From a virus, in IMG/VR virus record IMGVR_UViG_3300005466_000027, positions 7,865 through 71,864 of that record: a stretch of 64,000 nucleotides of DNA. One strand, written 5' to 3'. Below the pieces are notes generated by a model. It was not told where the DNA came from. It made no database searches and saw only the letters and a list, made by a program, of their open reading frames with translations. The translations under genes and the position numbers were made by a program. The first letter of the stretch is position 1, and each line of letters opens with the position of its first letter. Positions 946 to 45,700 of the stretch are shown here, in pieces.

Positions 946-2196
946 ATGCCTGCTCAAAATTTCGCCGCTTGCGCCACTATCTCGCAGCGGTTCCTCGTCG
1001 AATCCGGTCGTATCGGGCCGGAAGCTTATACCCGCGGTCGTGAAGCCGATCCGCTCTGGCTCGGCCTCATCGGTCAGAAGCCGTGGCACGACAACATGGG
1101 ATACATCATCTCGAACACGGTCTACCAGCGCTCGGGTCTGACCACGCCGCCGTCCTGGCAGACGATGCAGCAGTCCGATGGTGGCAACGTCAACGGCTGC
1201 GTGCCGCCGCTCACCGTTATCAGCAACTCCACCACGACCCAGCAGTACTACCGTCAGTGGATTTCGCTGGAGAGCGATCCGCTCTGCTTGATGGACATCG
1301 TGACGAGCAACGAGCCCCGCCGCGCCATCCAAGGCTTCATCGACAACCTGATGAGCAACGCCAACTACGTGCGCAAGGAGCGTGTTCGTTCCGAGTACGA
1401 GCGCATTTCCAAGCACAAGGTGGTCATCGCCCCCGGCCTGCCGGAAGACTCCACCGCCTTCCCGCTGGTGCAACCCACCAGCCCGGTGACGGGCGGCGTC
1501 CTGCGCCACTTCTATCGTCAGCTCCAGCGTGAATCCGATGGCACCTCCGGTGTGACCAAGGTTGCCACTGGCGACCGCGGCGACCAGAAGTTCATCTTCA
1601 CGAGTTCGGGCGAAACCATCGAGAACATCGTCAAGGGTGACGAGACGATCCGCAATGACTTCCGCTGGTCGTCCCGTGTGGACGAGCTGCTCGGTTCCTG
1701 GAGCGCCCCACGCATTGCGTATGGCGGCTTCATCATGTGCGAGGAGAGCTTCCCGCCCCGCTACAACTGGAACGGCGATTTCGTCCGTGTGCCGGAATAC
1801 ACCGCGCAGGCCACGACCATCGGCAGTAAGCTGGAAATCAACCCGGCCTGGAACAACGCCCAGTTCGAAGTCAGCTACATCTTCCACCCGGATGTGATGA
1901 TTTCGCGTGTGCCGAACCAGAAACAGAGCTTCGGCGATGTGACCTACGGCCCGCTCAACTACTCGCTGGATTTCCGTTGGGTGAACCAATGGGACCGCAA
2001 TTGTAATCCGGATAACCTTGTTGGTTGGTTCCGCGCCATCGGTATTCATGCCTCGGAGCCAGTCTTCCCGCAATTCGGTTACGCGCTCATGGCACTCCGG
2101 TGCGATGTCGCCCTGAACCTCGTGCCGTGTGGCTCTGGGTCGGGTTACGCCTCCAGCTTCTCGGTCTACAGCGGCCCAGACAGTTCGCTTCAGTAA
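946..2196 (+). CDS. probable major capsid protein (416 aa)
   Basis: Size, strongly biased codon usage, own promoter and long leader, followed by strong hairpin; no diagnostic motif, so call is from context. Confidence 0.7.
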   Translation: MPAQNFAACATISQRFLVESGRIGPEAYTRGREADPLWLGLIGQKPWHDNMGYIISNTVYQRSGLTTPPSWQTMQQSDGGNVNGCVPPLTVISNSTTTQQYYRQWISLESDPLCLMDIVTSNEPRRAIQGFIDNLMSNANYVRKERVRSEYERISKHKVVIAPGLPEDSTAFPLVQPTSPVTGGVLRHFYRQLQRESDGTSGVTKVATGDRGDQKFIFTSSGETIENIVKGDETIRNDFRWSSRVDELLGSWSAPRIAYGGFIMCEESFPPRYNWNGDFVRVPEYTAQATTIGSKLEINPAWNNAQFEVSYIFHPDVMISRVPNQKQSFGDVTYGPLNYSLDFRWVNQWDRNCNPDNLVGWFRAIGIHASEPVFPQFGYALMALRCDVALNLVPCGSGSGYASSFSVYSGPDSSLQ

Positions 2197-19643: not shown

Positions 19644-20030
19644 TTAAGGTTCGACAGATGCAGTTTTACTAAACTCCATGGCCGCAAAAGCGAGTTCCCG
19701 CCACACAGCCAGGGTGTAGCTCAAACGTGAATTTTCGTCAGGCCACTTTCGGTTGTTGTCGAAAGCAAAAGCAAATTTCTGAGCCGCTTTCATCAGCTTC
19801 TCCTGCGAGGCCAAATTAGTCCGTAGGTTGTTCTGTGCTATGGCAAGCTCAACGTCTTTGATGAAAGCGGCGTGAGCTTGTGGGGGGATATCGGCCAACT
19901 TCGTGCCGCCATGCTTTACTGTTAGCTCTTTAACTTTTTCCCCTTGTCCTGATTCCGCTAACGGGCGAATAAGCTCACGAAGTTCGGATTCAATTTTATC
20001 TGATGGGGCATTGAGAGATTGGGATTTCAT
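19644..20030 (-). CDS. protein whose N-terminal domain is paralogous to 19202-19579 C-terminus
   Basis: GEKVKELTVKHGGTKLADIP..HAAF..D. Confidence 0.65.
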   Translation of the reverse strand: MKSQSLNAPSDKIESELRELIRPLAESGQGEKVKELTVKHGGTKLADIPPQAHAAFIKDVELAIAQNNLRTNLASQEKLMKAAQKFAFAFDNNRKWPDENSRLSYTLAVWRELAFAAMEFSKTASVEP

Positions 20031-20052: not shown

Positions 20053-20084
20053 TCTTGCTGAAAATAACAAGAACTATTTTCAAC
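20053..20084 (-). promoter_or_regulatory. leftward promoter-like element, copy 2
   Basis: 27/32 identical to 13142-13173. Confidence 0.5.
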
Positions 20085-28536: not shown

Positions 28537-28565
28537 AGGTTAATTCAGTTTGTTGGAAACGTCAA
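28537..28565 (-). promoter_or_regulatory. early sigma70-like promoter
   Basis: TTGACG-17bp-TAACCT on minus strand. Confidence 0.65.
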
Positions 28566-28795: not shown

Positions 28796-29029
28796 CTACC
28801 GTTCAATCAGTGCGGCGCACTCCAGAGCGTGAAAGACGCACTCACCAAATTCGTGTGCAGCCTCTTGCCAAGACAGCCCGCCGCGGATTTGCGCGCCATA
28901 TTGGACGGCGAAAGAGCGTTTGCCTGACTGGTGGATCGAAACGGGGTGTTGACCGGGAATTTCGTGTGTGGTGATGAGGGTCGATTTCGTTTTCATGTGA
29001 TGCGGGATGAGGGTCGATTTCGTTTTCAT
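28796..29029 (-). CDS. hypothetical protein with duplicated N-terminus
   Basis: MKTKSTLIPHH-MKTKSTLI; FAVQYG.Q....L...AA.EFG.C..HAL.C. Confidence 0.6.
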   Translation of the reverse strand: MKTKSTLIPHHMKTKSTLITTHEIPGQHPVSIHQSGKRSFAVQYGAQIRGGLSWQEAAHEFGECVFHALECAALIER

Positions 29030-29038
29030 GTGATGCGG
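28973..29038. repeat. perfect 33-bp tandem duplication
   Basis: GATGAGGGTCGATTTCGTTTTCATGTGATGCGG x2. Confidence 0.95.
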
Positions 29039-29921: not shown

Positions 29922-29960
29922 AAGTTACTCCCACTTGTTGCATTCGTCAAGAGAAGATTT
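29922..29960 (-). promoter_or_regulatory. early promoter, repeat copy 1
   Basis: TTGACG-17bp-TAACTT; 30 bp identical to 31250-31279. Confidence 0.7.
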
Positions 29961-31241: not shown

Positions 31242-31279
31242 AGCATACTCCACTTGTTGCATTCGTCAAGAGAAGATTT
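31242..31279 (-). promoter_or_regulatory. early promoter, repeat copy 2
   Basis: TTGACG-16bp-TATGCT. Confidence 0.7.
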
Positions 31280-31296: not shown

Positions 31297-31872
31297 TCAG
31301 GTAAATGCCGGATCATCCATCAATGCGTTTTTCGCTTTTGCAGCGTGCTTTAACTCCACGGGGTCGGAGAGCTTATCCAATTTGAGTTTGTAACGGATTT
31401 GCTGGCCAGCGGCATAAACCTCTAATCGGGATACACCCAGCCTTGCTGCAATACGACGGGCTGGCCAGCGCTGAATTTTGTAGGAGAGAACCGCGCGCTC
31501 CAATGGGGTCATAAAGGTTTCTCGGGCTGCCTCTGGAACAGGTTGACCGGATTCGACCAATATGTCAGTTCCCAGATTCGAGAGATTATTCCCCACACGC
31601 TCCCTCATTCGAGCCACAATTGCGGCTGTCGGTTGTGGAGGTAGGCATGTCCAGAGATTGCAGCGAAGCCCCTCAACGCTGTGTAGGCCGATGGGACGCA
31701 TGCCTAAAGCCCGCAGAGACTTGGCCAAGCCTTGAGCAGTTATTAGGGCACCATCTTTTTCCAGGAATCGTAAAAGTGTTACGGCGTCGAGTATATCATA
31801 CTGAACGAGAGGGGTTTCTGCTGCTAAACGGTGTTCTTGGATTGCGCCGCGAATGGATAATTCTGAATGCAT
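31297..31872 (-). CDS. primase C-terminal-domain paralog fused to LuxR/sigma4-like HTH
   Basis: PLVQYDI...ITAQGLA..LR..G..P.G......R.NLW aligns with primase C-terminus; MTPLERAVL...RIAARLGVS...V......IRYKL. Confidence 0.75.
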   Translation of the reverse strand: MHSELSIRGAIQEHRLAAETPLVQYDILDAVTLLRFLEKDGALITAQGLAKSLRALGMRPIGLHSVEGLRCNLWTCLPPQPTAAIVARMRERVGNNLSNLGTDILVESGQPVPEAARETFMTPLERAVLSYKIQRWPARRIAARLGVSRLEVYAAGQQIRYKLKLDKLSDPVELKHAAKAKNALMDDPAFT

Positions 31873-32166
31873 ATGCCCAGTGCCTATACCACCTTTTCCT
31901 TATCGCACAAGGACAGATGTAGAGATTATTAAAAAAACGTATAATAGTATAAAGGGAATAGAGTAAGGGGAAATCGCATCTAGGAGGCAGGAGAGACTTT
32001 TTAAAGAAAAATATGGACAGCAGGGATTCAGTGCAGCGGGGCTGCTCCGATTTCGGGTTTTGAGCGTTTGCACGGCTAGCGCTGGATCAGTGGGCGCAGC
32101 CCCATGGTGCTTTGGAGTGTGAGGGCCACACTTGACTATACTTTTCAGGTATGCTCGAATGCCCAC

Positions 32167-32370
32167 ATGCCAAAGGCTAAGCCTCTTCCTGATGATCCTG
32201 TAGCGCGTGAAAAGGTGTTGCGGGCTCGCCGGTCAGCCGTGGAGCGGGTAAATAAGTGGAGAAAGCGCCACCCGGAAGCAGCTCGAATTTACACCTATGC
32301 GGCTCAAATGCGTTTCCTGGCATCCAAAAAAGCGAAAGCCCGTTTGCAGGCATTAAATTTGTTAGCTTAA
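32167..32370 (+). CDS. small basic hypothetical protein
   Basis: K/R-rich helix, KWRKRHPE. Confidence 0.45.
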   Translation: MPKAKPLPDDPVAREKVLRARRSAVERVNKWRKRHPEAARIYTYAAQMRFLASKKAKARLQALNLLA

Positions 32371-32379
32371 GCACTTTTT

Positions 32380-33100
32380 CCGTGGTGTCGCTTTTCCTCT
32401 GTAGGATGGTGCAACGCAAAGACGCTCAGCACGCGTCAAAACGAACTGCCCGCTGTCCCCTACCAGCTCGTCACCTTCAAAACGAATTTCGGGCACCAGG
32501 ATGGCTCGAATTTCGCCCACCCTGTGGAACAGATCGACCAAACACACTTTTGCGCTGTGGAACGAAATCGCGATGCTGTGGAACACTGATAGATACAGGG
32601 TTCTACGTTATTTGACATTCGGGTGTATTTCGTATAGTGCAAATGGTTGTGGTTGAGGGAGTTACGATAACGTTATACTCTCAGTATCATATGAAATGGG
32701 AATGACCCGCCTCTGTGGGATTGCTGAAGGGGTGGTGGGGTGGCACCCGGTAGGCGGGGAAACCGACCCCGCGTGATCGCGTAATAGGGGTCTCACGGGA
32801 TTTTCCTAAAATTTGACTTTTTCTAGTAATTATAATTCAGCCCGAACCACCTATTTCCGACACCACGAATTACCCGCACGCCGACGCACCCGCACGCCGA
32901 CATCAGCTATTTCCCGCGCACCCGCACACCAAAATAACTCCTCCCCCCCCGATCCACCAATCATCCAACCACCCTCACACCGGCCACACGAATTTCTTGA
33001 CGTGCCCCGTCGAACCTGATACACGCGCCAGCGCATGCTGAGAACCCAATCCCGAGTCTACTTCATCGCCCTGCTCACGCTGGAATATCTGCGCGGCTAA
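32380..33100. other. non-coding divergence region (candidate origin or genome terminus)
   Basis: No credible ORFs; CTGTGGAAC x3, ACCCGCACGCCGAC x2, AT-rich patches, G-rich to C-rich switch. Confidence 0.5.
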
Positions 33101-33110
33101 AAGATTTGTA

Positions 33111-33139
33111 TTGACGGAAACGTCAAAGAGGAGTAGTTG
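33111..33139 (+). promoter_or_regulatory. rightward promoter with palindromic -35
   Basis: TTGACG-gaaa-CGTCAA; 17 bp to TAGTTG; ATG 8 nt later. Confidence 0.6.
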
Positions 33140-33147
33140 TCGCAGAT

Positions 33148-33525
33148 ATGGCGAACAACTACACATCAGATGGTAAATTCATTATCGACGCTTCCGGCAA
33201 GCAGTGGCCGGTTGATGTGGCGCATTTAATGCCACTTCCAAACGGGCTCCAATTCCATACCATTGCCGGTGGTGGGTATTCACTGCTTTTCGCTGGACCT
33301 GATGGCGAATGGAGTTGCGAGCAGTACGACACTGACACCCACTGGCTAGCCCGCGCACCCCTGCCGCCCGTGCCGAAGCCGAAGACTCAGGCGGAGTTGG
33401 ATGAAGAGGCATACCACGCCTACATGCTTCCAATCGTAAACAAGGCTCACGGGATTCCATACCAATCGGTCTGGAACGCAGCACTCGCCTACGAGCGCAA
33501 CCGCACCGCTGCTACGCCACAATGA
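33148..33525 (+). CDS. hypothetical protein
   Basis: First ORF of rightward arm. Confidence 0.6.
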   Translation: MANNYTSDGKFIIDASGKQWPVDVAHLMPLPNGLQFHTIAGGGYSLLFAGPDGEWSCEQYDTDTHWLARAPLPPVPKPKTQAELDEEAYHAYMLPIVNKAHGIPYQSVWNAALAYERNRTAATPQ

Positions 33526-33734
33526 AAACCGCGCTCTACATCGAGGATGGTGTCACTCAGATCATCCTCACCCCCGAATCGGATTGGGAAAGAGTAATCC
33601 TGGCCGACGTGGACAAACGCCCAGTAACATTCTTCCGTGGTGAATTCTATTCCTGCAGAGGTGGATGGGATCGCCACGGCAGCGGCACCGAATCACTCAT
33701 CATCCGCATGGCTGAATCGAAGGAGGAACTGTGA
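33522..33734 (+). CDS. hypothetical protein
   Basis: MKTALYIEDGVTQIILTPE..E; CRGGW.R. Confidence 0.6.
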   Translation: MKTALYIEDGVTQIILTPESDWERVILADVDKRPVTFFRGEFYSCRGGWDRHGSGTESLIIRMAESKEEL

Positions 33735-34015
33735 TGAAAACTCCTGACACCTCTTCACCAGCATTTCCCGGACTATACAGCACCCCCGGATATGGTTGCG
33801 CCCGCCGCACCGCCGATGGAGAACTGGAGGAACACACCACCGGCATGACCCTGCGCGACTACTTCGCGGCCAAAGCGCTGCAAGGTATGATGGCAAACAA
33901 CAATGTCGCGTTGGTCGATTGCCTCACTGGCAGCCCCGAAGACATTCAGGCTATTGCCAAGACCGCGTATGCCCTGTCGGACGCGATGCTCGCTCAACGG
34001 GAGAAATTGGGATGA
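33731..34015 (+). CDS. conserved small phage protein
   Basis: PAFP...GMTLRDYFAAKALQG...AY.LSDAML..R. Confidence 0.8.
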   Translation: MMKTPDTSSPAFPGLYSTPGYGCARRTADGELEEHTTGMTLRDYFAAKALQGMMANNNVALVDCLTGSPEDIQAIAKTAYALSDAMLAQREKLG

Positions 34016-34230
34016 ACTGCGATTACTGCGGAACTTTTCACTACGACACCCGCTGCCCGAGCTGCGGAGCGCCTGTCACGCGGTCAGTCACCGCCGATCA
34101 AGTTCAAGGTGACGAGACGATCCGCCAAGACTTCCGCTGGTCATGGTCAGGTGGATTGCCTCAGATCATGGGGCTGAAGGTCGGTGGGTTCTCCATTATG
34201 CCACCATCCACCAAGCTCACGGGCGTATGA
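34012..34230 (+). CDS. 72-aa Zn-ribbon protein carrying a capsid-derived segment
   Basis: CDYC...CPSCG then VQGDETIRQDFRWS; ATGA overlaps both sides. Confidence 0.7.
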   Translation: MNCDYCGTFHYDTRCPSCGAPVTRSVTADQVQGDETIRQDFRWSWSGGLPQIMGLKVGGFSIMPPSTKLTGV

Positions 34231-34469
34231 CCACCTCCACCATCCTCCTCTCCCTCGTCCCGGTTTACCTTCTCGCTGGATGGCTCACCATGGTTTTCGA
34301 CACGGCCATTGGCAGTCACTCCAGCGCGGAACAACGCTTCGCTATTTTTCTGCTGTGGCCGTTCATGCTCGGAGCGCTGTTTCTGGTCTACATCTTTCGC
34401 AATCTGTGGGTGCTACTGGACAACGCGGCCACTCGCCTCGGAAATAAACTGAAGAGGAAAGACCCGTGA
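34227..34469 (+). CDS. two-TM membrane protein
   Basis: Two hydrophobic segments, LLWP motif. Confidence 0.6.
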   Translation: MTTSTILLSLVPVYLLAGWLTMVFDTAIGSHSSAEQRFAIFLLWPFMLGALFLVYIFRNLWVLLDNAATRLGNKLKRKDP

Positions 34470-35014
34470 TCGAGTTCAACCGCATCTTCACCGGAGGCAT
34501 GGAGCTGTGTCCCCCGGTCGTCCCCGGACTGGCCTTCGTGCATGCCTGCAAAACGTGTCACCGGCAGCTCTGCGGCCAACCCCGCCCTGCTGACCCGGAC
34601 TACCTTTACCGTGAGCACAACGGAGAGCTTTTCCTGAACTTGATCGACCCAGACAAGCCTCTTTTCAGCCTCCCTCTTTTCGAGCATGCCCTCGACTGGA
34701 TGACCCAACGCCACCGCAACGGCGAGGATGTAGTCATCCACTGTGACCAGGGCAACAGCCGCAGCCGGTCCCTCGCGTTGCTCCTCTGCGCCCGCCTCGG
34801 GTTCGTCACCGCGGACTCGCTCCAGCTCGCTGCATTCGAGTTCGCCAACAAAACAGGCTACGCTTTCACACCCGGTCGAGGCATCACGATCTTCATGGAG
34901 CAGAATTGGGAAGCGCTTATGGGCAGGGAAACCCCGAGAGAACGCTCGCAGCGGGAAGCAATAGATGCGCTAGTAAGGAGATTTGGTCCGCGTCTTCTCG
35001 CTGCCGGAGAATAG
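34466..35014 (+). CDS. dual-specificity/tyrosine phosphatase-like protein
   Basis: VVIHCDQGNSRS (CX5R) with upstream LNLID. Confidence 0.8.
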   Translation: MIEFNRIFTGGMELCPPVVPGLAFVHACKTCHRQLCGQPRPADPDYLYREHNGELFLNLIDPDKPLFSLPLFEHALDWMTQRHRNGEDVVIHCDQGNSRSRSLALLLCARLGFVTADSLQLAAFEFANKTGYAFTPGRGITIFMEQNWEALMGRETPRERSQREAIDALVRRFGPRLLAAGE

Positions 35015-35120
35015 TTTTTATGACCACACCCGTTCCCCTGCTCATCTCCGCCAAGACTATGAACACACATTACGAACTCATCGGCCTCACCGCCTTCGAC
35101 ACCCAGAAAGGGAAACGGGA

Positions 35121-35354
35121 GTGAGCACCTCTCGATACATTCGCAACTGCATCCGATGGTTCTTTCTTTGCATCTTCCACCCGCTGAAGACACGTCACGA
35201 ATTGGACCAATACAATTTCTGGTTCCAGCAGACACAGGATGCCTTTGACCGGGCCAAGGCTGCGAAAACACAGAAAGAATTTCTCTTGGCCAAGTCACAG
35301 TTCCAGCTTGCCGAACGCCGCTACTGGAAGCACTCCAAATACATCTGCCCATGA
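35121..35354 (+). CDS. hypothetical protein (GTG start uncertain)
   Basis: ATGA-coupled to next gene. Confidence 0.45.
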   Translation: MSTSRYIRNCIRWFFLCIFHPLKTRHELDQYNFWFQQTQDAFDRAKAAKTQKEFLLAKSQFQLAERRYWKHSKYICP

Positions 35355-35650
35355 CCACAGAAACTTGCAAAAACTGCTGGTGGTGGAGCAGACCGGACGC
35401 GGAAGCAACCCTCGGCCAGTGCCGATGCCATGCGCCTTCCACTGTCGAGACAGACTGCAACGCCGCTTTTTCAGGCAGAGCACAGCAAACGCTATGGCCG
35501 GTGACGGAGGCGATTGACTGGTGCGGGGACTTCCGGCACAACGTGAGCTGCGATGCACCGAGCCTCCAGGCATGGAAAGATGCACAGATTGACCAAACCT
35601 ATCAGTTTCTCAGTGACTTCGTGAAAACCAGAATCGAGTTGGCACCATGA
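35351..35650 (+). CDS. Cys-rich small phage protein
   Basis: CKNCWWW...CRCHAP...WP......WCGDF. Confidence 0.65.
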   Translation: MTTETCKNCWWWSRPDAEATLGQCRCHAPSTVETDCNAAFSGRAQQTLWPVTEAIDWCGDFRHNVSCDAPSLQAWKDAQIDQTYQFLSDFVKTRIELAP

Positions 35651-35838
35651 CCGATCACCTCATCAACATCGCTTGGAAGGCATCCAGAGTTCTCGATCAG
35701 TTGGAGCCACCTAAAGACGGCTGTGGTCCGACCGGAATTATCGGGCCGCGGGGATTTTATCCAGCGGGTGAGTCCTACGAAAAAGACCTTGTTGAGTCTA
35801 TCCAATCCATGCTCACGCGCATCTCCCAGTACCTATGA
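35647..35838 (+). CDS. hypothetical protein
   Basis: ATGA overlaps. Confidence 0.5.
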   Translation: MTDHLINIAWKASRVLDQLEPPKDGCGPTGIIGPRGFYPAGESYEKDLVESIQSMLTRISQYL

Positions 35839-36236
35839 AACTCCCCCTTATCTTCATCCTCCTGCTCCTCGCCACCACGCTACACGCCGACGACTGGTCA
35901 TCCGCTATGCTCGCTCGTCTCGATGCCGAGCAGCGGACTAGCGAAATCGCCTTTGCCAAGTCCGACTTCAAGGCACTCCTGCAGAGCCAGCGCAGGCTCA
36001 ACGTCATCCGTCGCCAGGCTAGCAACCACCGACAGATCGACACTCTCGCACCCGTCCAGCAAAACGCCTACTACAAGCGGCTGGAGTCACGCGACGAATA
36101 CGCTATCAAGTGGCTGGCCATCGCCCTCTACGCTCTCGAAGCGGCGTCGGCTCAGATCGACCGTGAAGAACTCGCGGCGATACAGCGTGAGCAGCTTTAC
36201 CTGCTGCGGGACATCGATAACCTGATTGCACGATGA
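35835..36236 (+). CDS. secreted helical protein
   Basis: Signal peptide MKLPLIFILLLLATTLHA. Confidence 0.6.
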   Translation: MKLPLIFILLLLATTLHADDWSSAMLARLDAEQRTSEIAFAKSDFKALLQSQRRLNVIRRQASNHRQIDTLAPVQQNAYYKRLESRDEYAIKWLAIALYALEAASAQIDREELAAIQREQLYLLRDIDNLIAR

Positions 36237-36517
36237 GCACACCAACTGAGCCGGAGAAGGCTTACATTCGAACAAAGCAATTCGAGTTCACCTCTCGAAA
36301 GCAATGCGACCATTTGGAGGCCATTGTGCAGCTTATCGCACCCAAACTGGAAGAAGTCGGAGTGCAGGTGATCTACAAAAACATTCCAGACCTTCATGCG
36401 AACCCGATGCGCTTGAAACCATTTCTGCTGATAATCGGTGAAGCGCAGCCGCTCTTGCGATTCGCGGATGGTGGTGTGCTCCTCAAAAGTGAAACTTCGC
36501 CGGAGAGAAAAGAGTAA
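36233..36517 (+). CDS. hypothetical protein (paralog of 55893-56096)
   Basis: GVQVIYKNI.....NPMR. Confidence 0.55.
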   Translation: MSTPTEPEKAYIRTKQFEFTSRKQCDHLEAIVQLIAPKLEEVGVQVIYKNIPDLHANPMRLKPFLLIIGEAQPLLRFADGGVLLKSETSPERKE

Positions 36518-36550
36518 GGCCACCCCGTTAACGACGCACGATCAACCCGT

Positions 36551-36778
36551 ATGAATACTCTTTCTCTTCTTGCTGTAGGCGCGCTCGGATCCACAGGCGG
36601 TTTGGTCGGTCTTCTCGTCTACGTGGCCATCGCCGCGGTTGTGGTGTGGGGCATCATCGCGCTGGTCAAGTGGAGTGGCATCGTCATACCGCAGCCGGTC
36701 TACATCATCCTCGTGTGCCTGGCGTGCATCTTCCTGATCCTCTTGATTGCGCGTGCATTTGGTGTGCTGGCGGGGTAA
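36551..36778 (+). CDS. two-TM small membrane protein
   Basis: Hydrophobic hairpin with central IPQP. Confidence 0.7.
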   Translation: MNTLSLLAVGALGSTGGLVGLLVYVAIAAVVVWGIIALVKWSGIVIPQPVYIILVCLACIFLILLIARAFGVLAG

Positions 36779-36834
36779 AAGTTCTTGACGGATTCGTATA
36801 GATTACGATACGTTTCGAGCAGTTCTTTGAATCT

Positions 36835-36907
36835 TGAATTGAGCGTGGAGAGCCTCTGCTGGGTATGACTCAGCTTCTCTGGCGGGTAAGACGCCGCGTT
36901 CAATTCA
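36835..36907 (+). ncRNA. candidate three-way-junction RNA
   Basis: 12-bp closing stem TGAATTGAGCGT/GCGTTCAATTCA, two internal hairpins; downstream of TTGACG at 36785. Confidence 0.45.
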
Positions 36908-36916
36908 GTCTTCAAT

Positions 36917-37027
36917 GAAGCAGGTGGACAAATTGGTAAAGTCGGCTCAGACGAGTAGCTGGTGCGCTGACGGGTTGATCGCCGTCAGTTCCCAGTCCTG
37001 CAGGTTCAACTCCTGCCCTGCTTCCCC
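36917..37027 (+). ncRNA. tRNA-like RNA lacking a normal anticodon loop, with giant variable arm
   Basis: Acceptor GAAGCAGG/CCTGCTTC, D arm GAC-AAATTGGTAAA-GTC, T arm GCAGG-TTCAACT-CCTGC. Confidence 0.7.
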
Positions 37028-37033
37028 TTTTAA

Positions 37034-37226
37034 TTTTTGTTGGTGGCGGCTTCCCACGGGCGGTGCAATTCCGCAGACTGTCTACTGAGGGAATACCTGC
37101 TTGAAATGGCGTCTGTGGCAATACGGTAGGCGGGCAAGTGCTCGTGCCAGTCCCTTTGGCGGGTGTTGGAGTGAGAAGTCGTGTTTTTCGACCGAGGCTG
37201 CTCAGCCATCCCGCCACCAACAAAAA
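37034..37226 (+). ncRNA. candidate 193-nt multibranched RNA
   Basis: Perfect 16-bp closing inverted repeat; internal T-loop-like and GNRA hairpins. Confidence 0.55.
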
Positions 37227-37336
37227 CGGTTGACGACCTCAGCAGTAATGATATCGTTCCGTTCTGTGATTTTCTCGCCGCGACCCCGATTCTGATACCA
37301 CCCCGCTCTGCACCTGTTCAGAGCGGTGTATCAACT

Positions 37337-37414
37337 CGCGTCGTGGGCTAATCTGGCTAAGCCGTCTGCCCTGGGAGCAGGACAATGTGCGTTCGAATCG
37401 CACCGACGCGACCA
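37337..37414 (+). tRNA. tRNA-Pro(UGG) with encoded CCA
   Basis: Full cloverleaf; C1:G72, A73, anticodon TGG, G37; atypical C33. Confidence 0.9.
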
Positions 37415-37574
37415 CTTTTCAATCCCCCTCACTGTTGCGACGGTGGGGTTTTTACCACCCGCCCGATGAGGGCGATTCCAAGGCCACCTGTCACCGGGTG
37501 GTCTTGTTCTTTTTTGCACGGATTGCTTTACGCTGTTGACTATTGACAACGGATGTGGTTTGACTGTCAGGCAA

Positions 37575-38363
37575 ATGCCATCCTCGACATCACGAGTCGT
37601 TCCCCGCTCCAAGGATAATTTTACGTGGACTGGCGGCTGGGTGACGACGACCCCCCAGCAGGCCAAGAGCATTGCCACGCGCTACGGTGGCGCACCGGCC
37701 AACCCGAATCTCAAGACGGACGCGGAGGTGGCCAACATGGGTGCTGCCGCACAGACCAAGGCCGATGCCGACATGGGCACCGCGGCCAACACCGCGCAGA
37801 ATGAACAGAATCTCGCCGCCGCCGAGACGCGGGGCAACATCGCTGCCGCGGGCACCATGCTCCCGGCTGGCACGACCAACGAGGTGCAGCCTGGTCAGGT
37901 AGCCGGTGCCACGGTGCCCGTTGCAGCTCCGACGACCGTTGTCGCCCCCGGTGGCCCAGTGGTCAACCCGAACACGGGCAACACCGCCGCCCAGCAAGCC
38001 GAGCAGAACTGGATGGATCGCGGGGGCAGCGTGGCCACCATGCACCGCGCGCAAGTCGCTCAAGGCCGACGCCCTGCCATCGACGCCCGCGCTACACCGG
38101 CTTGGCAGGATGCCGGTCAGTCGGCATCGGATCAAATCCGCAGTGGGTTCGGCAGCGGTCCCGGTCAGGAAGGGCACAACCCGTTTCCTGCATCCGACTT
38201 CGGCAATGCCGGGAGCGCCGTATGGGCAGCGATGACCGACAAATTCAACCAGTTGAACCAGAGCAAGGCTCGTCTGCGGCAATCGCTTGCCCCGGCATCC
38301 GCTCCCACCCCGCAGTTTAGCGCCGGTTCCTCGGCAGAGGATTCCACCGCTTTCGGCAGCTAA
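37575..38363 (+). CDS. probable DNA ejection/internal virion protein
   Basis: A/G/Q/T-rich low complexity; first of three genes of increasing size. Confidence 0.5.
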   Translation: MPSSTSRVVPRSKDNFTWTGGWVTTTPQQAKSIATRYGGAPANPNLKTDAEVANMGAAAQTKADADMGTAANTAQNEQNLAAAETRGNIAAAGTMLPAGTTNEVQPGQVAGATVPVAAPTTVVAPGGPVVNPNTGNTAAQQAEQNWMDRGGSVATMHRAQVAQGRRPAIDARATPAWQDAGQSASDQIRSGFGSGPGQEGHNPFPASDFGNAGSAVWAAMTDKFNQLNQSKARLRQSLAPASAPTPQFSAGSSAEDSTAFGS

Positions 38364-39760: not shown

Positions 39761-42700
39761 ATGGCCTACGACCTCACCGATTTTGAACCGGAGCAGGCGT
39801 CTCCGGTCGCGGTCAAGTCGCCCATCTCGAAATCCCGTCAAGACCTGAGTGATTTCGAGCCGGTGGAGACACCCGCTGAACCGACCGCGGCTGAACCCGC
39901 GGAGCAGGCTGCGCAGGCGACAGTTCCTCCTGTGCAACCCGCCATCACCAACGACCCTTTCGCCGCGTTCAATGCCAAGCTGGAAAATTCTCCCGTGGCC
40001 AGGATGCCGGAGGTGAACTTGCCCGCGCAGTCCGCTGTCCCGGATGTCACTCGCCCCATTCAGCCGGTGCCGCAGGTAACGCCGGAAGACACGCTGCCGG
40101 TGGCCAAGGACGTGCCCAGCCGGGGCGTGTTTGTCAACGAGACGCCGACGCTCATCAGCAATATCCGCGAAGGTAAATTCGAAGACGCGGCGGCACTGGC
40201 CAAGGAAAACGCGATGGGTTCCAAACCGATGCGATTCCTCTTCGGGCCCACCGAAGCTCAGAGGATCGCGGAGGCGGTTCCCGTGACCAAGGAGGATGGC
40301 ATCACCAGCTACGAGTACAAACCGGCCAGCACGGATGCTGTGGAGAAGCTGGGTGCGGTCGGGGCGGCACGTCGTTCCATCGCGTCCCTGGAGCGCGGCA
40401 TCCCGGTGACGGAGTTGGATCAGAAGGTGGAAAGCGAGATGATGAAGGACGACCCCAGCGACAGCACGTTGAAGTCCATCGGCAAGGGGCTCTATAATGC
40501 GGTCCTCAGAACGACCGTGAGCCTTTCCGATCCGACGATGGCTCTTATCCCGGAATCGAAGCTGGTCAGCGGTGCGTTTACGCTCGATATGGCCAACAGC
40601 GCCAAGGAACAAATTCAGAAAGGGCTGGAAGCGGACAACCCTCGGGAAGCGGTCGAAGGATTGCTCGGGGGCGTCATCACCTTGGGCATGGCTGGGGTGT
40701 CGGGGAGCCATACGCTCAAGCCGACCAAGGCCGACATCATCGAGCACATGGACAAGGTGCCGGATGAACTGTTGCACGAAGCCAACAAAGAACTGAAGTC
40801 CAGCGACCCGGATGTGGCCAGCGCGGCGGGGGCCGAGTTGATGAAACGGGCTGCCGACTTTGGTCAAGAGTTGGACGCCACGCTCAAGCGATTGCCTGGC
40901 GATGTGCAGGAGAAGGTCAATGGTATTCTGCAGAAACAGCTCCGGGGTGAAGAACTAACCAACAACGAGCGTGCCACGCTGTTGCAGGTGCGGTCCTACG
41001 CTTCGCGGCTGCAGCAGGATAAGACCAACGACGAATTTACTTCTGGAACGCCAGCACGAACAGCGCCGACGCAGCAAGTAGCGCCAGCAGAACCAGTAGG
41101 AACTGGGGGGCAGTCAGTGAGTCCACGTAATGAACCTGCGCCTGTTGTAGACGCGAGTCAACAAGGCGGCAGTGTAGCGGCGTCTGCCAAGGCTAAAGCG
41201 GAGGCAGCGACACAACCGCTGCGGGAAGTCGCAGCAGCCGTCCAAGAGACATTACCGCTCGCCGCTCAAGCAGCCAAGGAACAGGCGGATTTGCTGGCCA
41301 AACGGGCGCAGGAGCAGGCTGCGGCTGCAGAATCAACTTCACCGCCGCCCGCCGTCGAACCTCCGGCATCGGGCCAACAGGAACCGCCACTCTCCGGGGA
41401 AGAAAGGCCCCCGGCTGCCACGGTCGCTCCTGTCATGGAAGGGGCGGCGGCGAAGCCTGTCACACAGGGCACCAAGATCGTAGGCCCGGTCCTGCAGGTC
41501 GATGGTAAAACCTATGCCGAGGGCAAAATTGGGCAGCATCACAAAGACATCGTAGCTGAGGCGATTGACAACTATTTCAAGGCTAACCCGGATGCCGAGG
41601 AAGTGCCACGGTTCGATCACCGATTCAAGGACGACCAAGGCAACATCCACGACCGGGAGAGCGGCTGGGAGCTGGCCAAGAGTGCCAACCAGATTCCACC
41701 GGAAACGGCGAACGCAGTTGAAGCGCTGGCAAGCTCCAGTGGTGACAGACCGCAGCTTCACGCCGATCACTTGGTTGAAGGAGAATCCAGCTTGACGGAA
41801 ACAGCAAACAATGGAGAAGCTGCTGGAATGACCAAAAAACCTTTTGAGGTAGATGAATCTCTTGTGATGAACTCACCACACACTGGAGATGACACGATTG
41901 TGAATTTTCGAGGAGTCCAAGGAGATAATGCAGTGGTGTGGACCGGGAGAAGTCAGATGATGGTGCCTCTGGAGTGGCTTCGCCGTGAAGGCGAGCCCCT
42001 TCAGAAAAAAGAAACCCCTTCTTCACAGGCTCAACTACCTGCTGACGCCCCACATCCATCTACATCTGAGGGCAAAACGGAAGTAGCCGAGAAGGATTTT
42101 CCTAAAACAAAAGCAGACATCATTGAGGAACTTCTCGGTCCAGAGCCAAGCTACTTTGAAGGACAGATGAAGCAGAAAGAATCCGCCAAACAATACGCTA
42201 AATTTTCCAAACAGGAACTGGCTGAGAGACTACAAAATAAGAGGGATTTTGAGAAAAAAAGTAAGGAATTAAGTCAGCGGATGATGTCCGTCGCTCCAGA
42301 GGTTTCTGCGCGCTTGGACGCTGCGGGAGGTAAATGGCGTGCAGAGGCCAACCAGATCGCAGAAGAACATGGTTTTGGTGAACGGTGGAGAGGGATGACC
42401 GACAACTCACGGGGGGAGGAAGCTGCTCGTCTTTCCAGTTTTTTGGCCGATTACGGATTTGATAAGCTGAAAAAGGAGCCTCCTGATGAACCTGTATCTT
42501 CGAAAGAGCCGATTACCGTGGAACGACCAGTGGTTGCACCGAATGAGCCTGTGGAGCGGCCACCGGCTGCGGATGCCGCTGCGACCGAGGCTTCCGTGGC
42601 GAAAGGCTCCCTTCTCGATAAATTAGAGTCCCTGCTGACCGAAGAGGAGCCGCCCGCCGCCGCGAAGGAAGCTCCGCAATCCCCCGCACAGAAGCGGGTG

Positions 42701-45700
42701 GCCGATATTCAGCGGGACATCGAAAATAACGCGGGTGCCGAGCCCGCATGGCTGCGGCGGCGTAAAAAAGACCTCAAAGAAGCCCAAAAAGCGCTGTCTG
42801 AGGAGAAAACGGCTGCTCCGGTGACGGACGAAACCACGCCCGAATCTGCTTCTGTGGATCCAGAAAAACGCGAAATTTGGCAGAAAACACGCGCAGAAGT
42901 GGAGAAAGAAGGCGGTTCCAAGGCACGTCACCGCTTGGAAGTGCGGGAAGCGGTCAAACGGGGCGAAGATGTGCCTTTGGAGACGCTGGAGGACTATTCC
43001 GGCTCCAACTGGGCTGACAAAATGCGCCGGGAAAAGTATGGCGAAAAAGTCAGTGACACCCTATTCGAACGCATCCTTGAATCTTTGAAGGATGAGAGTG
43101 GAAATCTTCATTTTGACCCGCTGTTCATCAAGAGCGTGGGCAAACCGGCGTTGCGCGGAGCGGTCAAGATCATCCGCGAAGGTGTGGAAGCCGGTAAATT
43201 GGCCAAGGATTTGATGGAGGATGTCGTTGCCTACATCAAAAAAAACTCACCCGACGCCGATGAAGCTAAGGCCCGTGAATTTTTCCAGCCGGTGATTGAT
43301 GAAGTGCTGGGCGAAAAACCCGCACCGACTGAAGAAGCTGCACCCGCCGCCGAGTCGCCTACACCTCCTGCCGAACCGCCGACGCAGACCGAACCCCGCA
43401 TGGTGGATGAGGGTGGACGCAGGCTCACCTCGACCAAGAATGAGATTGTCGATCAGGAACGCCAGCGCCGCGGAGAACCGCCGATCCTGTCCGAAGCGAA
43501 AAAGTCTCTTGGTAATACGTGGGATGAGGCGATGGACGAGTTTGCCAAAAACCCGGACGCTGGCACATCGCTGGTCGATGACCTGAACAAAAATCCTCGC
43601 GCCATCACGGCGAAAGAGGAAGCAATTTTGCTGCGGGAAAAGGTGGACGTGATGAACGATTTGACCAAGGCCACGGAAATGGCGTTGAACGCGAGCGCTG
43701 ATCCGGCAGATCGGGTGGAAGCGCGCGTGCGCAGTGCCGTGCTGATGGATCAGCTCAACAGCATCGACGAGGCCACACGTAAAGCGGGCACCGAGTGGGG
43801 CCGCACCGGACGTTTCCGTCAAATGCTCGCCGCCGAGGACTATTCGTTATCCCGCATGCTGCAGAAATCGGAGCTGGCCAAGCAGCGTCCGCTGACACCC
43901 GAGGAACAGGCTCAAGTCCAGAAAATGAGCGAGCGTATTGCATCGCTGGAAAAGCAGCTTGCCGATTACGAGGCGAATCACGCTCAGGAAATCGAGCATA
44001 TTCGTAACGAGGAAGCGGACAAGGCCATCCAACGGATGGTGTCCAAGCCCGAGACTCCCGCAGACGCCTACACCCGTGGTGTCCTTGAAAAGATTCAGGT
44101 AGGGTTGAAGAGTCAGGCGGATAAAGCCCGCGCTCGTATTCGCGCACGCCTTGGAAAAGCGTCCGCAGGTGTTGACCCCACCGTGATTTACGACGTAGCC
44201 GTGATTGGAGCTGAGAAGCTATTTAGCACTGGGTTGGATTTCGCTCGTTGGGGGTCGGAGATGCTCTCGGATTTAGGCGAGTCGATGAAGGAGTATCTGA
44301 CCGAAGATACTTTCAAAAAATCGCAGGAGATTAACGACAAGGCGATTGCGAAAGGTGCCCCGAAATCCGTCCGGGAGAAGATCAAACCCAAGGCTCCGAA
44401 GACACCCAAAACCGACGAGGAACAGCGTCAGAACACCGTCAACCGCATCGCGGAGAAGCGGAAGAACGGTGCGCGCGAAGCCATCGGCGGTTCCATCCAA
44501 CAGCTTGCCGAAAGTTTCGTGCGCAGCGGCATCCATGAGCGGGAACCACTGATCGACGTCGTGCATGCGGCGGTGAAAGAAGCACTGCCCGAGGCAAGCC
44601 GCAAGGACATCCGGGATGCCATCAGCGGCTACGGTGATTACAAGGAATTAAGCAAGGATGAAGCCAAAGTGATTCTGCGCGATCTGAAAGGTCAGATGCA
44701 ACAGGTGTCAAAACTGGAGGACATGCTCAAGACAGGCAAACTCCCTGCGCGCACCGGCATCGAACGGCGCACCCAGAGCGCGGAAGAACGGCAGTTGCTT
44801 AAGGAGGTTAACAAAGTCAAAAAGGAATTGGGGTTGGAGTCCACCGACCCTACCCAGCTCAAGGGCGCGCTCGACGCGGCCAAGACCCGAACCCGCAATC
44901 GCATTGAAGATTTGCAGCGCGCCATCGAGAAAAAGGAGAAAATTCCCAAGGCTGAGTCTGCTTTGAAAGAGGATGCGGAGCTGCGTGATTTGAAAGCCCG
45001 GAAAGACGCAGTGCAGAAAGAGTATGACGCTATGTTCGGTAAAGCCAAGCCGACCGCGGAAGAGATTGCCGCTGACAAAGCGCAGCAGGCGGTAGATCGG
45101 GCTGCCGCCGCGCTGGACCGGCAACAGCGCATCAACAGTGGGGAGCTTAAACCGGAGGCTAATGAGCGGGCGCAGCCGTTGAGCGCGCTGGAGAAGGAAC
45201 TCCGCGACCGCACGGAAGAACTGCGCGCGGCCAAGCGCAAGGCAGATGCTTACAAGAGCCCGGAGTCCCTCGCCGCCGAGAAAGCGCAGAAGGGCGTGGA
45301 CGCCGCCGCAGCCGCCGTGGATCGCTGGGACCAGATTTTGAAGGGCGAACTGGAGCGCACTCCGGGCGCACCGAAGGAGCCGCTGTCCAATCTGGAGGAG
45401 GAACTGCGCGCCCAGGCCGACGCCATGCGCAAGGCGGCGGATGAGCTGCGCCGCCAACCGAAGTCGGAGGATGCCAAACGTACGGCGGCGGAAGATGCCC
45501 AGATCAAGGCTTTGGAGAAATCCGTGGCCGAGTATGAGCGGCGTATCAAGGAGATGGATTTTTCATTCAAGGGCGCGAACCAAGGACGACCCGAGGTGGA
45601 GCGCGTAGCCAAGGTGCGTGCCGCCCGCGACGCGGCGAAAAAGGCTTACGAGGACTTGAAGAAGGCTCAGACGCCGCAGAAAACGCCGGAGGAAATTGCT

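What the first reader, a model, noticed from the sequence alone, without database searches (positions are those of the whole stretch)
34012..34230. Small Zn-finger protein displaying a copied segment of the phage's own capsid protein: candidate capsid decoy
Seen: 34108-34142 matches capsid-gene 1636-1670 at 33/35 nt and in frame (VQGDETIRQDFRWS vs VKGDETIRNDFRWS), with weaker similarity continuing to GGFSIM vs GGFIM. It is fused behind CxxC-CxxC and translationally coupled on both sides, in an operon of small non-structural genes 32 kb from the capsid gene. Established: several defences sense capsid peptides (Lit/Gol peptide, CapRel, PifA). Inference: a self-derived mimic that titrates a capsid-sensing immune protein, modulates assembly or interferes with competing phages.
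Basis: partly seen in the sequence, partly recalled or inferred. Interest (0 to 1): 0.85.

Follow-up and report, generated by a model that had tools for sequence, protein, structure and literature searches.

The report
Zinc-ribbon mini-protein carrying own-capsid peptide
A small accessory gene of an uncultured soil phage really does carry an in-frame 35-letter copy of the phage's own head-shell gene, probably pasted in by recombination, and it may imitate that piece of the shell, but its two known relatives lack the copy and nothing yet shows what it does.

Summary
Window 34108-34142 matches 1636-1670 at 33/35 nt, both in frame (0 of 100 shuffles). It stands in two assemblies and in a contig from a second study.

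946-2196 is the major capsid protein (MCP): the model matches HK97-fold capsids, best N4, although Pfam and PHROGs see nothing.

34012-34230 is a real gene. It is ATGA-coupled on both sides, and its zinc ribbon is under purifying selection (dN/dS about 0.11 against the one relative with DNA).

The tail is fast-evolving. The copied peptide is the start of the MCP clade's most conserved motif (IRxDFRWS), and it includes a tetrapeptide (GDET) found only in this phage's allele among 32 MCPs.

The only two relatives (of about 15 billion proteins) show no detectable MCP likeness by profile methods. They keep only a marginal collinear motif pattern.

Best reading: a short ectopic gene-conversion tract in the variable tail of a zinc-ribbon protein paired with a small membrane protein. 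It may act as an MCP-peptide mimic (about 45%) or be a near-neutral scar (about 40%). An immune decoy is untested.

This scan has noted zinc-ribbon proteins carrying own-capsid pieces on other DNA before.

The parts
34012..34230 (+). Gene for the 72-aa protein: an N-terminal four-cysteine zinc ribbon plus a tail of about 47 aa that carries the capsid-derived peptide.
   Evidence: ORF and translation. GGGAG lies 6-7 nt before the ATG, and ATGA overlaps occur at both ends. Two relatives, P0033 and P0034. ESM Atlas model of this exact sequence has pLDDT 0.30.
34012..34086 (+). Zinc-ribbon module (codons 1-25, with CxxC at residues 3-6 and 15-18), the constant part of the family.
   Evidence: About 88% nt identity to L082. 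7 synonymous against 4 non-synonymous differences, dN 0.071, dS 0.646. Pfam Zn_ribbon_3 E 3.3e-4, 20.5 bits, below the cut-off of 27. 22 further proteins of an exhaustive search match only this module.
34108..34142 (+). Recipient copy of the capsid-gene tract (residues 33-44, GDETIRQDFRWS). With flanks, 34102-34143 agrees at 36/42 nt.
   Evidence: 33/35 nt, in frame.
946..2196 (+). Major capsid protein gene (416 aa, HK97 fold).
   Evidence: Foldseek against PDB gives N4, Moo19, DEV and other capsids at probability 1.00. 31 relatives at 34-90% identity. No Pfam or PHROG hit.
1636..1670 (+). Donor tract in the capsid gene (residues 231-242). It starts the conserved IRxDFRWS..ELLG..GGF..PP stretch of the A domain, after helix 222-230.
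   Evidence: Conservation. Secondary structure, and pLDDT below 50 for residues 239-251.
34227..34469 (+). ATGA-coupled gene for an 80-aa protein with two hydrophobic segments. It is the partner in a recurring two-gene module.
   Evidence: Hydropathy, and the same arrangement in L082 (303-479) and L131 (5222-5407). Unalignable between the window and L082.
33731..34015 (+). Upstream coupled gene (94 aa, phrog_2201, unknown function).
34466..35014 (+). Downstream coupled gene (182 aa) with a Cys-phosphatase-like HCDQGNSR motif. It is the conserved neighbour used as a synteny marker.
   Evidence: Weak Pfam DSPc hit. Relatives at 85% and 79% identity lie on the contigs that hold P0034 and P0033.

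Best explanation
SHOWN:
- 34012-34230 is a genuine accessory gene in a translationally coupled operon of small genes. The phage is a complete 71.9-kb uncultured phage with direct terminal repeats.
- Its product has a constant N-terminal zinc ribbon, under purifying selection, and a tail of about 47 residues that changes fast and is poorly modelled.
- The gene is always followed, with an ATGA overlap, by a small protein with two hydrophobic segments.
- In this lineage, 35 nt (36 of 42 with flanks) of the phage's own HK97-fold capsid gene stand in frame in the middle of the tail.
- The protein therefore carries 12 residues of the capsid A domain. These are the allele-specific GDET plus the start of the clade-wide IRxDFRWS signature.

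INFERRED:
- The tract was copied from the capsid gene into the small gene, because the motif is ancestral in all capsid relatives.
- The copying was a short non-reciprocal recombination (gene conversion or template switch).
- It was probably seeded by an R-x-D-[FL]-R motif that the small family already had at that place.
- If the tail drifts freely, the copy arose after the split from the relative L082.

MOST LIKELY FUNCTION (about 45%):
- The zinc ribbon is the anchoring module, working with the membrane partner.
- The tail is a displayed peptide that imitates this capsid segment and competes for whatever reads it. That could be a neighbouring capsid subunit, an assembly factor, or a host or rival-phage protein that recognises the capsid.
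- Which partner is not known.
For: The copy is real and non-random. It is in two assemblies and a second study.

Capsid identity.

Real gene:
- Coupling and Shine-Dalgarno sequence.
- Zinc ribbon: 25 codons, 7 synonymous and 4 non-synonymous differences, dN/dS about 0.11 against L082.

Fast tail:
- The small protein is 51-55% identical to its relatives, while the neighbouring 182-aa protein on the same contigs is 79-85% identical.
- The middle of the ORF and the membrane-protein ORF are unalignable, between blocks of about 88% nt identity.
- The C-terminal 16 codons have dN/dS about 1.

Direction and own allele:
- IRxDFRWS is conserved in 30 of 32 aligned capsid proteins, fully or with single conservative changes.
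- GDET occurs in 1 of 32.

Youth, or else constraint: 2 of 35 nt differ, whereas dS between this phage and L082 is 0.65-0.69.

In register with a family motif: ours RQDFR, P0033 RMDLR, P0034 RHTFH or YDFRE.

Collinear motif test:
- The pattern D[LF]R..G[GV]F..PP was taken from the two relatives.
- In the phage's own six-frame ORF set it hits 2 of 798 segments: the capsid protein and the small ORF itself.
- In other loci it hits 26 of 1797. Of these, 22 are capsid homologues, 1 is L082's small ORF, and 3 belong to one unrelated family.

Two-gene module in 3 of 3 loci with DNA.

The same architecture (zinc ribbon plus own-capsid piece) was noted by this scan in several other genomes. These are unchecked AI notes.
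Against: - Both known relatives (2 of 2) show no significant likeness to the capsid region by hhalign. Their best hits lie elsewhere, at E 0.15 and 0.12.
- An HMM of capsid residues 226-272 ranks them 1098 and 1879 of 6572 reported hits. The family's function therefore does not obviously need the capsid peptide.
- Shuffle tests of the relatives' tails against the capsid region are marginal and depend on the gap penalty. P0033 gives p 0.016-0.106 and P0034 gives 0.03-0.72, with 500 shuffles each.
- The motif pattern was chosen after I had seen the capsid sequence.
- The tail evolves at about the neutral rate where it can be aligned. It resembles the unconstrained linker of zinc-ribbon-plus-membrane proteins, so any insert might be tolerated.
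- The gene is sporadic. There are 31 capsid relatives, at least 5 of them on contigs of 68 kb or more, but only 2 relatives of the small ORF.
- 5 of 5 more distant complete or near-complete relatives lack the small ORF.
- No expression data exist.
Confidence: 0.45

Rival explanations
1. Near-neutral recombination scar. The 35-nt tract is an accidental short gene-conversion or template-switch product in an unconstrained linker-like tail. The protein's function, whatever the zinc ribbon and membrane partner do, is indifferent to it.
For: - Relatives lack the segment.
- The tail and the next ORF are hypervariable, between blocks of about 88% identity.
- dN/dS is about 1 in the alignable tail end.
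- The tract is little diverged (2/35).
- The gene is sporadic.
- The phage encodes a PD-(D/E)XK/DUF2800 exonuclease, an SNF2-type helicase and other DNA enzymes. Whether these promote short-homology exchange is my inference.
Against: - A random insert reproduces the donor's reading frame and strand only 1 time in 6 (my arithmetic).
- The tract falls on the capsid clade's signature motif and in register with the family's own R-x-D-[FL]-R.
- All 33 identical positions are kept, and both differences sit in the one codon that also varies among capsid proteins.
- The allele is present in a second study.
Confidence: 0.4
2. Immune decoy. The early-made mini-protein binds and titrates a host protein that senses this capsid segment, without setting it off.
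For: - Direct sensing of a major capsid protein by a defence protein is established for CapRel (PMC9712102 from the search listing; PMC11578894 abstract read).
- Fusions of fragments of essential viral genes to a binding domain were proposed as decoys in Bodo saltans virus (PMC5871332, passage read).
- Own-allele GDET.
- Position in an operon of small accessory genes in a hypervariable spot.
Against: - No host, sensor or expression data.
- In the known cases binding of the trigger activates the sensor, so an early-made copy could as well set off abortive infection.
- Relatives lack the segment.
- The copied stretch is only 12-14 residues and lies in a region modelled with low confidence.
Confidence: 0.12
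3. Assembly modulator or interference factor. The displayed peptide occupies the site on capsid subunits, or on scaffold, protease or decoration proteins, that normally binds residues 231-242. This would delay the phage's own assembly or poison the heads of co-infecting relatives that share the invariant IRxDFRWS.
For: - The motif is nearly invariant across the clade, down to capsid proteins about 26-29% identical, as expected of a contact element.
- It is poorly modelled in the monomer.
- Mimicry of an assembly partner is known for SaPI1 CpmB against the 80alpha scaffold. This is recalled; the paper was named in a scan note and I did not read it.
Against: - The position of residues 231-242 in an assembled shell was not determined.
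- Early expression with a membrane partner is an odd place for a head-assembly factor.
- Relatives lack the peptide.
Confidence: 0.15
4. Nucleic-acid-level element. The shared 35 nt is a common RNA or DNA site (for a regulator, a small RNA or a nuclease) rather than a shared peptide.
For: The small-ORF copy lies in a hairpin with z-score -2.9; 0 of 200 shuffles fold as well.
Against: - The capsid copy folds differently and not better than shuffles: z -0.64, 48 of 200.
- No Rfam family in 31800-37700 apart from the tRNA.
- Both copies are sense and in frame, which a nucleic-acid site does not require.
Confidence: 0.03

Closest known systems
HK97-fold major capsid proteins of N4-like podophages (PDB 9e99, 9lbz; also Moo19 9d7z, DEV 9bgn)
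   Same: The 416-aa donor protein has this fold. Foldseek E is 4.5e-11 to 1e-9, probability 1.00, over about 400 aligned columns.
   Different: Only 10-11% sequence identity. No Pfam or PHROG family matches and there is no tblastn match in 50,697 phage records. No N4-type virion RNA polymerase or other N4 hallmark was identified here.
Bodo saltans virus ankyrin-repeat genes that carry fragments of essential viral genes, proposed as decoys (PMC5871332, passage read)
   Same: A fragment of the virus's own essential gene is fused to a small binding-type module in an accessory gene, in a fast-changing part of the genome.
   Different: That is a giant eukaryotic virus with ankyrin repeats and catalytic-domain fragments. 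Here it is a phage with a zinc ribbon and a 12-residue capsid peptide. The function is untested in both.
Capsid-sensing defences (CapRel-SJ46 and the capsid proteins of SECphi27/Bas phages: PMC9712102 from the listing, PMC11578894 abstract read; Lit/Gol of T4 and PifA/T7 recalled)
   Same: They show that a short surface of a major capsid protein can be what a host protein reads. That is the premise of a decoy.
   Different: No phage-encoded capsid decoy is described in those papers as far as I saw (abstract and listing only). Here no sensor, host or binding is known.
Zinc-ribbon domains (Pfam PF13248, PF13240, PF12773) at the N-terminus of membrane proteins
   Same: Two CxxC knuckles in about 25 residues. 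The nearest ESM Atlas models are zinc ribbon plus transmembrane proteins. Here the membrane part is a separate, coupled gene.
   Different: Scores are below the Pfam cut-offs (20.5 against 27 bits). The tail carries a capsid-gene tract.
Earlier notes of this scan: small zinc-ribbon accessory proteins with pieces of the phage's own capsid protein (e1-6032448, e1-6133767, e1-5594744, e1-5788327)
   Same: The same architecture as described in those notes: a zinc-binding module plus a short copy of the capsid's conserved motif, in a rare and fast-changing gene.
   Different: They are on other genomes, and I checked none of them. Here the copy is a short DNA tract with little divergence rather than an old diverged copy.

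Membership tests
HK97-fold major capsid protein (for 946-2196) | HK97 fold: N-arm, E-loop, long spine helix, P and A domains. | tested here: met
   AF2 model pLDDT 69, pTM 0.67, with a long helix at residues 124-154. 271 PDB chains match at E<=0.001, and the top hits are all phage capsid proteins.
HK97-fold major capsid protein (for 946-2196) | Match to a curated capsid sequence family. | tested here: not met
   0 Pfam and 0 PHROG families at E<=0.1. This lowers no claim about the fold; the clade is simply undescribed.
Zinc ribbon (PF13248/PF13240/PF12773) | Two CxxC knuckles about 8-12 residues apart. | tested here: met
   C3-C6 and C15-C18 are invariant in 3 of 3 family members.
Zinc ribbon (PF13248/PF13240/PF12773) | Score over Pfam's gathering threshold. 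| tested here: not met
   Best score is 20.5 bits against a cut-off of 27. Metal binding was not tested.
Diversity-generating retroelement (template and variable repeat) | A reverse transcriptase gene in the element, and mismatches confined to template adenines. | tested here: not met
   No RVT_1 match in the 71.9-kb genome at E<=0.1. The two mismatches are A/C and T/A.
Capsid-derived trigger or decoy of a capsid-sensing defence (CapRel, Lit/Gol, PifA type) | Direct binding of the peptide to a host sensor, with an effect on defence. | not testable with these tools
   The host is unknown and no sensor has been identified.
Self-derived fragment fusion ('decoy fusion' as proposed for Bodo saltans virus) | An accessory gene that joins a fragment of the virus's own essential gene to a separate small module. 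| tested here: met
   Zinc ribbon (codons 1-25) plus the capsid tract (codons 33-44). This is architecture only; the function is untested in both cases.
Conserved capsid-mimic family (the segment kept, or tracking each phage's own capsid) | Relatives carry a segment like their own capsid protein. | tested here: inconclusive
   Two relatives have no significant profile match but share collinear D[LF]R..G[GV]F..PP motifs and marginal shuffle tests. Their own capsid genes are not on the contigs.

The most novel reading that the evidence does not exclude
The gene belongs to an undescribed two-gene phage module: a zinc-ribbon protein with a display tail, plus a small membrane protein. In this reading the whole tail is an old copy of the capsid protein's signature stretch (about residues 228-270). 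Recurrent gene conversion against the phage's own capsid gene keeps it in step with that gene. The phage would then make, early in infection, a membrane-tethered imitation of the most conserved surface of its own shell protein. The imitation would intercept a capsid-recognising factor, either a host immune sensor or a rival phage or satellite. Together with the similar cases noted elsewhere in this scan, this would be a general and unrecognised class of phage self-mimic.
Probability: 0.2. Interest if true: 0.85.

Novelty: new variant of a known kind. Interest (0 to 1): 0.5.

Why it matters
If the copied peptide is functional, this would be a natural case of a phage imitating its own capsid protein. 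The design is simple to test: 72 residues with a 12-residue insert.

It would bear on how capsid-sensing immunity is countered, or on how head assembly is timed. No phage example turned up in my two literature searches.

If the tract is neutral, it is still a clean, datable example of a very short ectopic gene-conversion tract between a structural gene and an accessory gene 32 kb apart. It would show how phage accessory genes pick up new sequence.

In either case the capsid protein itself belongs to a clade that no curated family covers.

Tried and rejected
- Chance match: rejected.
- Assembly chimera: rejected.
- DGR: rejected. No reverse transcriptase, and the mismatches are not adenine-specific.
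- Binding of the small protein to the capsid protein: complex prediction with alignments A1 and A2 gave no verdict (score 0.00, controls not run). This is no evidence either way.
- Expression: no RNA holder was listed among 3 runs, so nothing can be said.
- Runs X2 and X3 hold only small shares. Apart from the 151-nt X2 contig they add nothing.
- Relatives in phage GenBank records: no match for the capsid protein. For the small protein, 5 records matched, all at E 0.5-0.9.
- IMG/VR scan with the small-protein alignment: 36 pattern hits, 0 confirmed.
- 5 more distant IMG/VR relatives (capsid about 34-37% identical): 0 of 5 have the small ORF. In 5 of 5, only the capsid gene itself matched a capsid query, so no capsid-piece genes were detected.
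- Regex scan of 125 held loci for the ribbon: only L082.
- Likeness of the relatives' tails to the capsid protein: hhalign and HMM negative, Smith-Waterman shuffles marginal. Left as inconclusive.
- P0053's tail (QDF...W.G) looked like ours, but its 91%-identical IMG/VR homologue L131 has the motifs in another order. I do not use it as evidence for an ancestral motif.
- The hits L132, L133 and L134 are spurious or unrelated.
- L131's record is a 27%-complete fragment without a capsid gene of this clade.
- The ESM Atlas gave only generic zinc-ribbon neighbours, all under 0.9.
- No sigma-70-like promoter excess in 31800-37600: 3 found against 3.0 expected.
- Literature: searches (phrases 'capsid mimic', 'capsid decoy', 'capsid protein mimic', 'capsid fragment', 'capsid-like peptide', 'decoy capsid', and capsid+decoy+phage+anti-defense+mimic) listed no phage-encoded capsid self-mimic. 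I read listings only, so this is not proof of absence. Supplements were not consulted.

Full report
**Where the window lies.** The window is bases 7865-71864 of a 71,864-bp virus record with direct terminal repeats, estimated complete. GC is 56%. Leftward genes at about 4.5-31.9 kb encode an SNF2-type helicase, a DNA polymerase, a DUF2800/PD-(D/E)XK exonuclease and a primase. A rightward operon of small genes runs from about 33.1 kb to two strong terminator-like hairpins after a tRNA-Pro at 37.3-37.5 kb. Most structural genes match no PHROG.

**The observation.**
- 34108-34142 and 1636-1670 agree at 33 of 35 nt. Both start at a first codon position.
- Only these two copies exist at 3 mismatches or fewer, and 0 of 100 shuffles give two.
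- A self-blastn finds just two intragenomic repeats at E<0.01, and this is one of them.
- With flanks, 14 codons agree at 36 of 42 nt and 12 of 14 residues.
- Both core differences are in one codon (Gln CAA against Asn AAT).
- The ORF overlaps its neighbours by ATGA at both ends and has GGGAG before its ATG.
- An independent contig of run X1, which may be the source sample, carries the whole stretch unchanged. A 151-nt contig from another study (X2) spans 34032-34176 with 2 other letters. The chimera is therefore in the DNA, not in one assembly.

**The donor is the capsid gene.** Pfam, PHROGs and tblastn against 50,697 phage records see nothing for the 416-aa protein. A model built on 32 sequences has pLDDT 69 and pTM 0.67. 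It matches HK97-fold capsid proteins: phage N4 9e99_B at E 4.5e-11 and probability 1.00, then Moo19, B2, DEV and others, with 271 chains at E<=0.001. There are 31 relatives at 34-90% identity, and 98 more distant ones in IMG/VR, of which 80 were kept at 40% or less.

**Where the copied residues lie.** Residues 231-242 follow helix 222-230 of what, by the usual HK97 topology (my knowledge), is the A domain. Residues 239-251 are modelled below pLDDT 50.
- The stretch IRxDFRWS..ELLG..GGF..PP is the best-kept signature of the clade.
- It is recognisable even in capsid proteins about 26-29% identical.
- The four residues before it vary. GDET occurs in this phage alone among 32.
- The small ORF therefore carries this phage's own allele, and the capsid gene is the likelier donor.

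**The recipient is a real, rare gene.**
- Only two relatives were found among 5.8 billion clustered proteins: P0033 (67 aa) and P0034 (71 aa).
- An exhaustive profile search of 1.84 billion representatives found one full-length cluster. It also found 22 proteins that match the zinc ribbon alone and have unrelated tails.
- The neighbouring 182-aa Cys-phosphatase-like protein has relatives of 85% and 79% identity on the same two short contigs. The small protein is only 55% and 51% identical to its relatives there.

**Comparison with L082.** I obtained the DNA of P0033's contig as L082.
- The ribbon is about 88% identical to the window, and so is the phosphatase-like gene. The middle of the small ORF and the whole next ORF cannot be aligned.
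- Ribbon: 7 synonymous and 4 non-synonymous changes in 25 codons, dN/dS about 0.11.
- Last 16 codons: dN/dS about 1.
- Phosphatase-like gene: about 0.21, with dS 0.69.
- So the ribbon is under purifying selection, and the tail drifts or diversifies.

**Age of the tract.** If the tail is free to change, 2 differences in 35 nt make the tract several-fold younger than the split from L082. Otherwise it is older and is being conserved or refreshed. This is my estimate.

**A two-gene module.** In the window, in L082 and in a distant IMG/VR fragment (L131, GC 43%), the ribbon gene is followed by a gene for a 58-80-aa protein with two hydrophobic segments, again with an ATGA overlap. These membrane proteins share no detectable sequence. 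The nearest ESM Atlas models are zinc-ribbon-plus-transmembrane proteins. The pair thus looks like a split form of that architecture, with the tail in the place of the linker.

**Do relatives carry capsid sequence?**
- By profile methods, no. Against the capsid profile, hhalign gives 89.8% and E 1.8e-6 for our protein. It gives only E 0.15 and 0.12, at other places, for P0033 and P0034.
- An HMM of capsid 226-272 ranks our protein directly after the capsid hits (rank 85 of 6572 reported hits, E 8e-4). It ranks the relatives at 1098 and 1879 of the same 6572.
- Shuffle tests are marginal.
- Yet all three proteins have R-x-[DT]-[FL]-[RH] where our tract lies, followed by G[GV]F and PP.
- That pattern, taken from the two relatives, hits only the capsid protein and the small ORF among 798 ORF segments of the own genome. 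Elsewhere it hits 26 of 1797: 22 capsid homologues, L082's small ORF, and 3 members of one unrelated family.
- I chose the pattern after seeing the capsid sequence, so I count it as suggestive only.
- It fits a tail that already resembled the capsid at this spot, which would explain how so short a tract could be converted in frame.

**What it is not.**
- It is not a DGR: there is no reverse transcriptase, and the mismatches are not adenine-specific.
- It is not a known RNA.
- The hairpin around the small-ORF copy (z -2.9) has no counterpart at the capsid copy.
- The complex prediction gave no verdict.

**Reading.**
- Shown: a real accessory gene carries an in-frame, little-diverged copy of its phage's own capsid signature.
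- Inferred: direction, mechanism and age.
- Function: I put about 45% on some use of the likeness (a displayed peptide mimic on a zinc-ribbon anchor working with the membrane partner), about 40% on a near-neutral scar, and within the former about 12% on an immune decoy and 15% on assembly or interference.
- A published parallel is the decoy-fusion hypothesis for Bodo saltans virus (PMC5871332, passage read).
- Capsid sensing by CapRel is established (PMC9712102 from the listing; PMC11578894 abstract).
- This scan has noted zinc-ribbon proteins with own-capsid pieces in several other genomes. Those notes are unchecked and come from the same kind of reader. They raise my prior only a little.

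Noticed in passing
window 31297-31872 (-) and 20084-22732 (-): The 191-aa ORF beside the non-coding region is a paralogue of the primase C-terminus: 32% identity over 105 aa, E 6e-8, primase residues 780-883. The third case it names (19644-20030) gave no blastp hit at E<1e-3.
   Followed up: partly
window about 32520-32680; L085 about 1680-1840: A conserved non-coding element lies upstream of the rightward operon. It has three GTGGAAC repeats followed by TTGACA and an AT-rich box. It is about 80-90% identical to a metagenome contig whose phosphatase-like protein is only 45% identical. It is probably the operon's promoter and operator region. It reads as a spurious ORF in both.
   Followed up: partly
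window 34087-34469 against L082 180-479: A hypervariable block (the tail of the zinc-ribbon gene plus the whole membrane-protein gene) is embedded between blocks of about 88% nt identity. This suggests a hotspot of diversification or cassette exchange.
   Followed up: partly
window 34466-35014 (+): A 182-aa protein with an HCDQGNSR (CX5R) motif and a weak DSPc hit, so a Cys-phosphatase-like accessory protein. It has 43 loci of relatives in JGI metagenomes, mostly at 30-35% identity.
   Followed up: partly
window 29931-29960 and 31250-31279; 28973-29038: An exact 30-nt repeat at two intergenic places 1.3 kb apart, with a 73% third copy at 28546, and an exact 33-nt tandem duplication. They may be promoter- or terminator-like punctuation of the leftward early genes.
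   Followed up: no
window 946-2196 and IMG/VR loci L002-L081: The capsid protein belongs to a sizeable clade: 31 close and 98 distant relatives, many on 65-80-kb contigs. No Pfam or PHROG model covers it.
   Followed up: partly
window 39761-47302 (+): A 2513-aa ORF with no PHROG match at E<0.001.
   Followed up: no
L132 5064-5195, L133 4926-5081, P0053 C-terminus: The peptide string WNGTERRL turns up in off-frame or tiny ORFs of two unrelated IMG/VR contigs and in P0053. This may be a shared nucleotide element rather than a protein.
   Followed up: no
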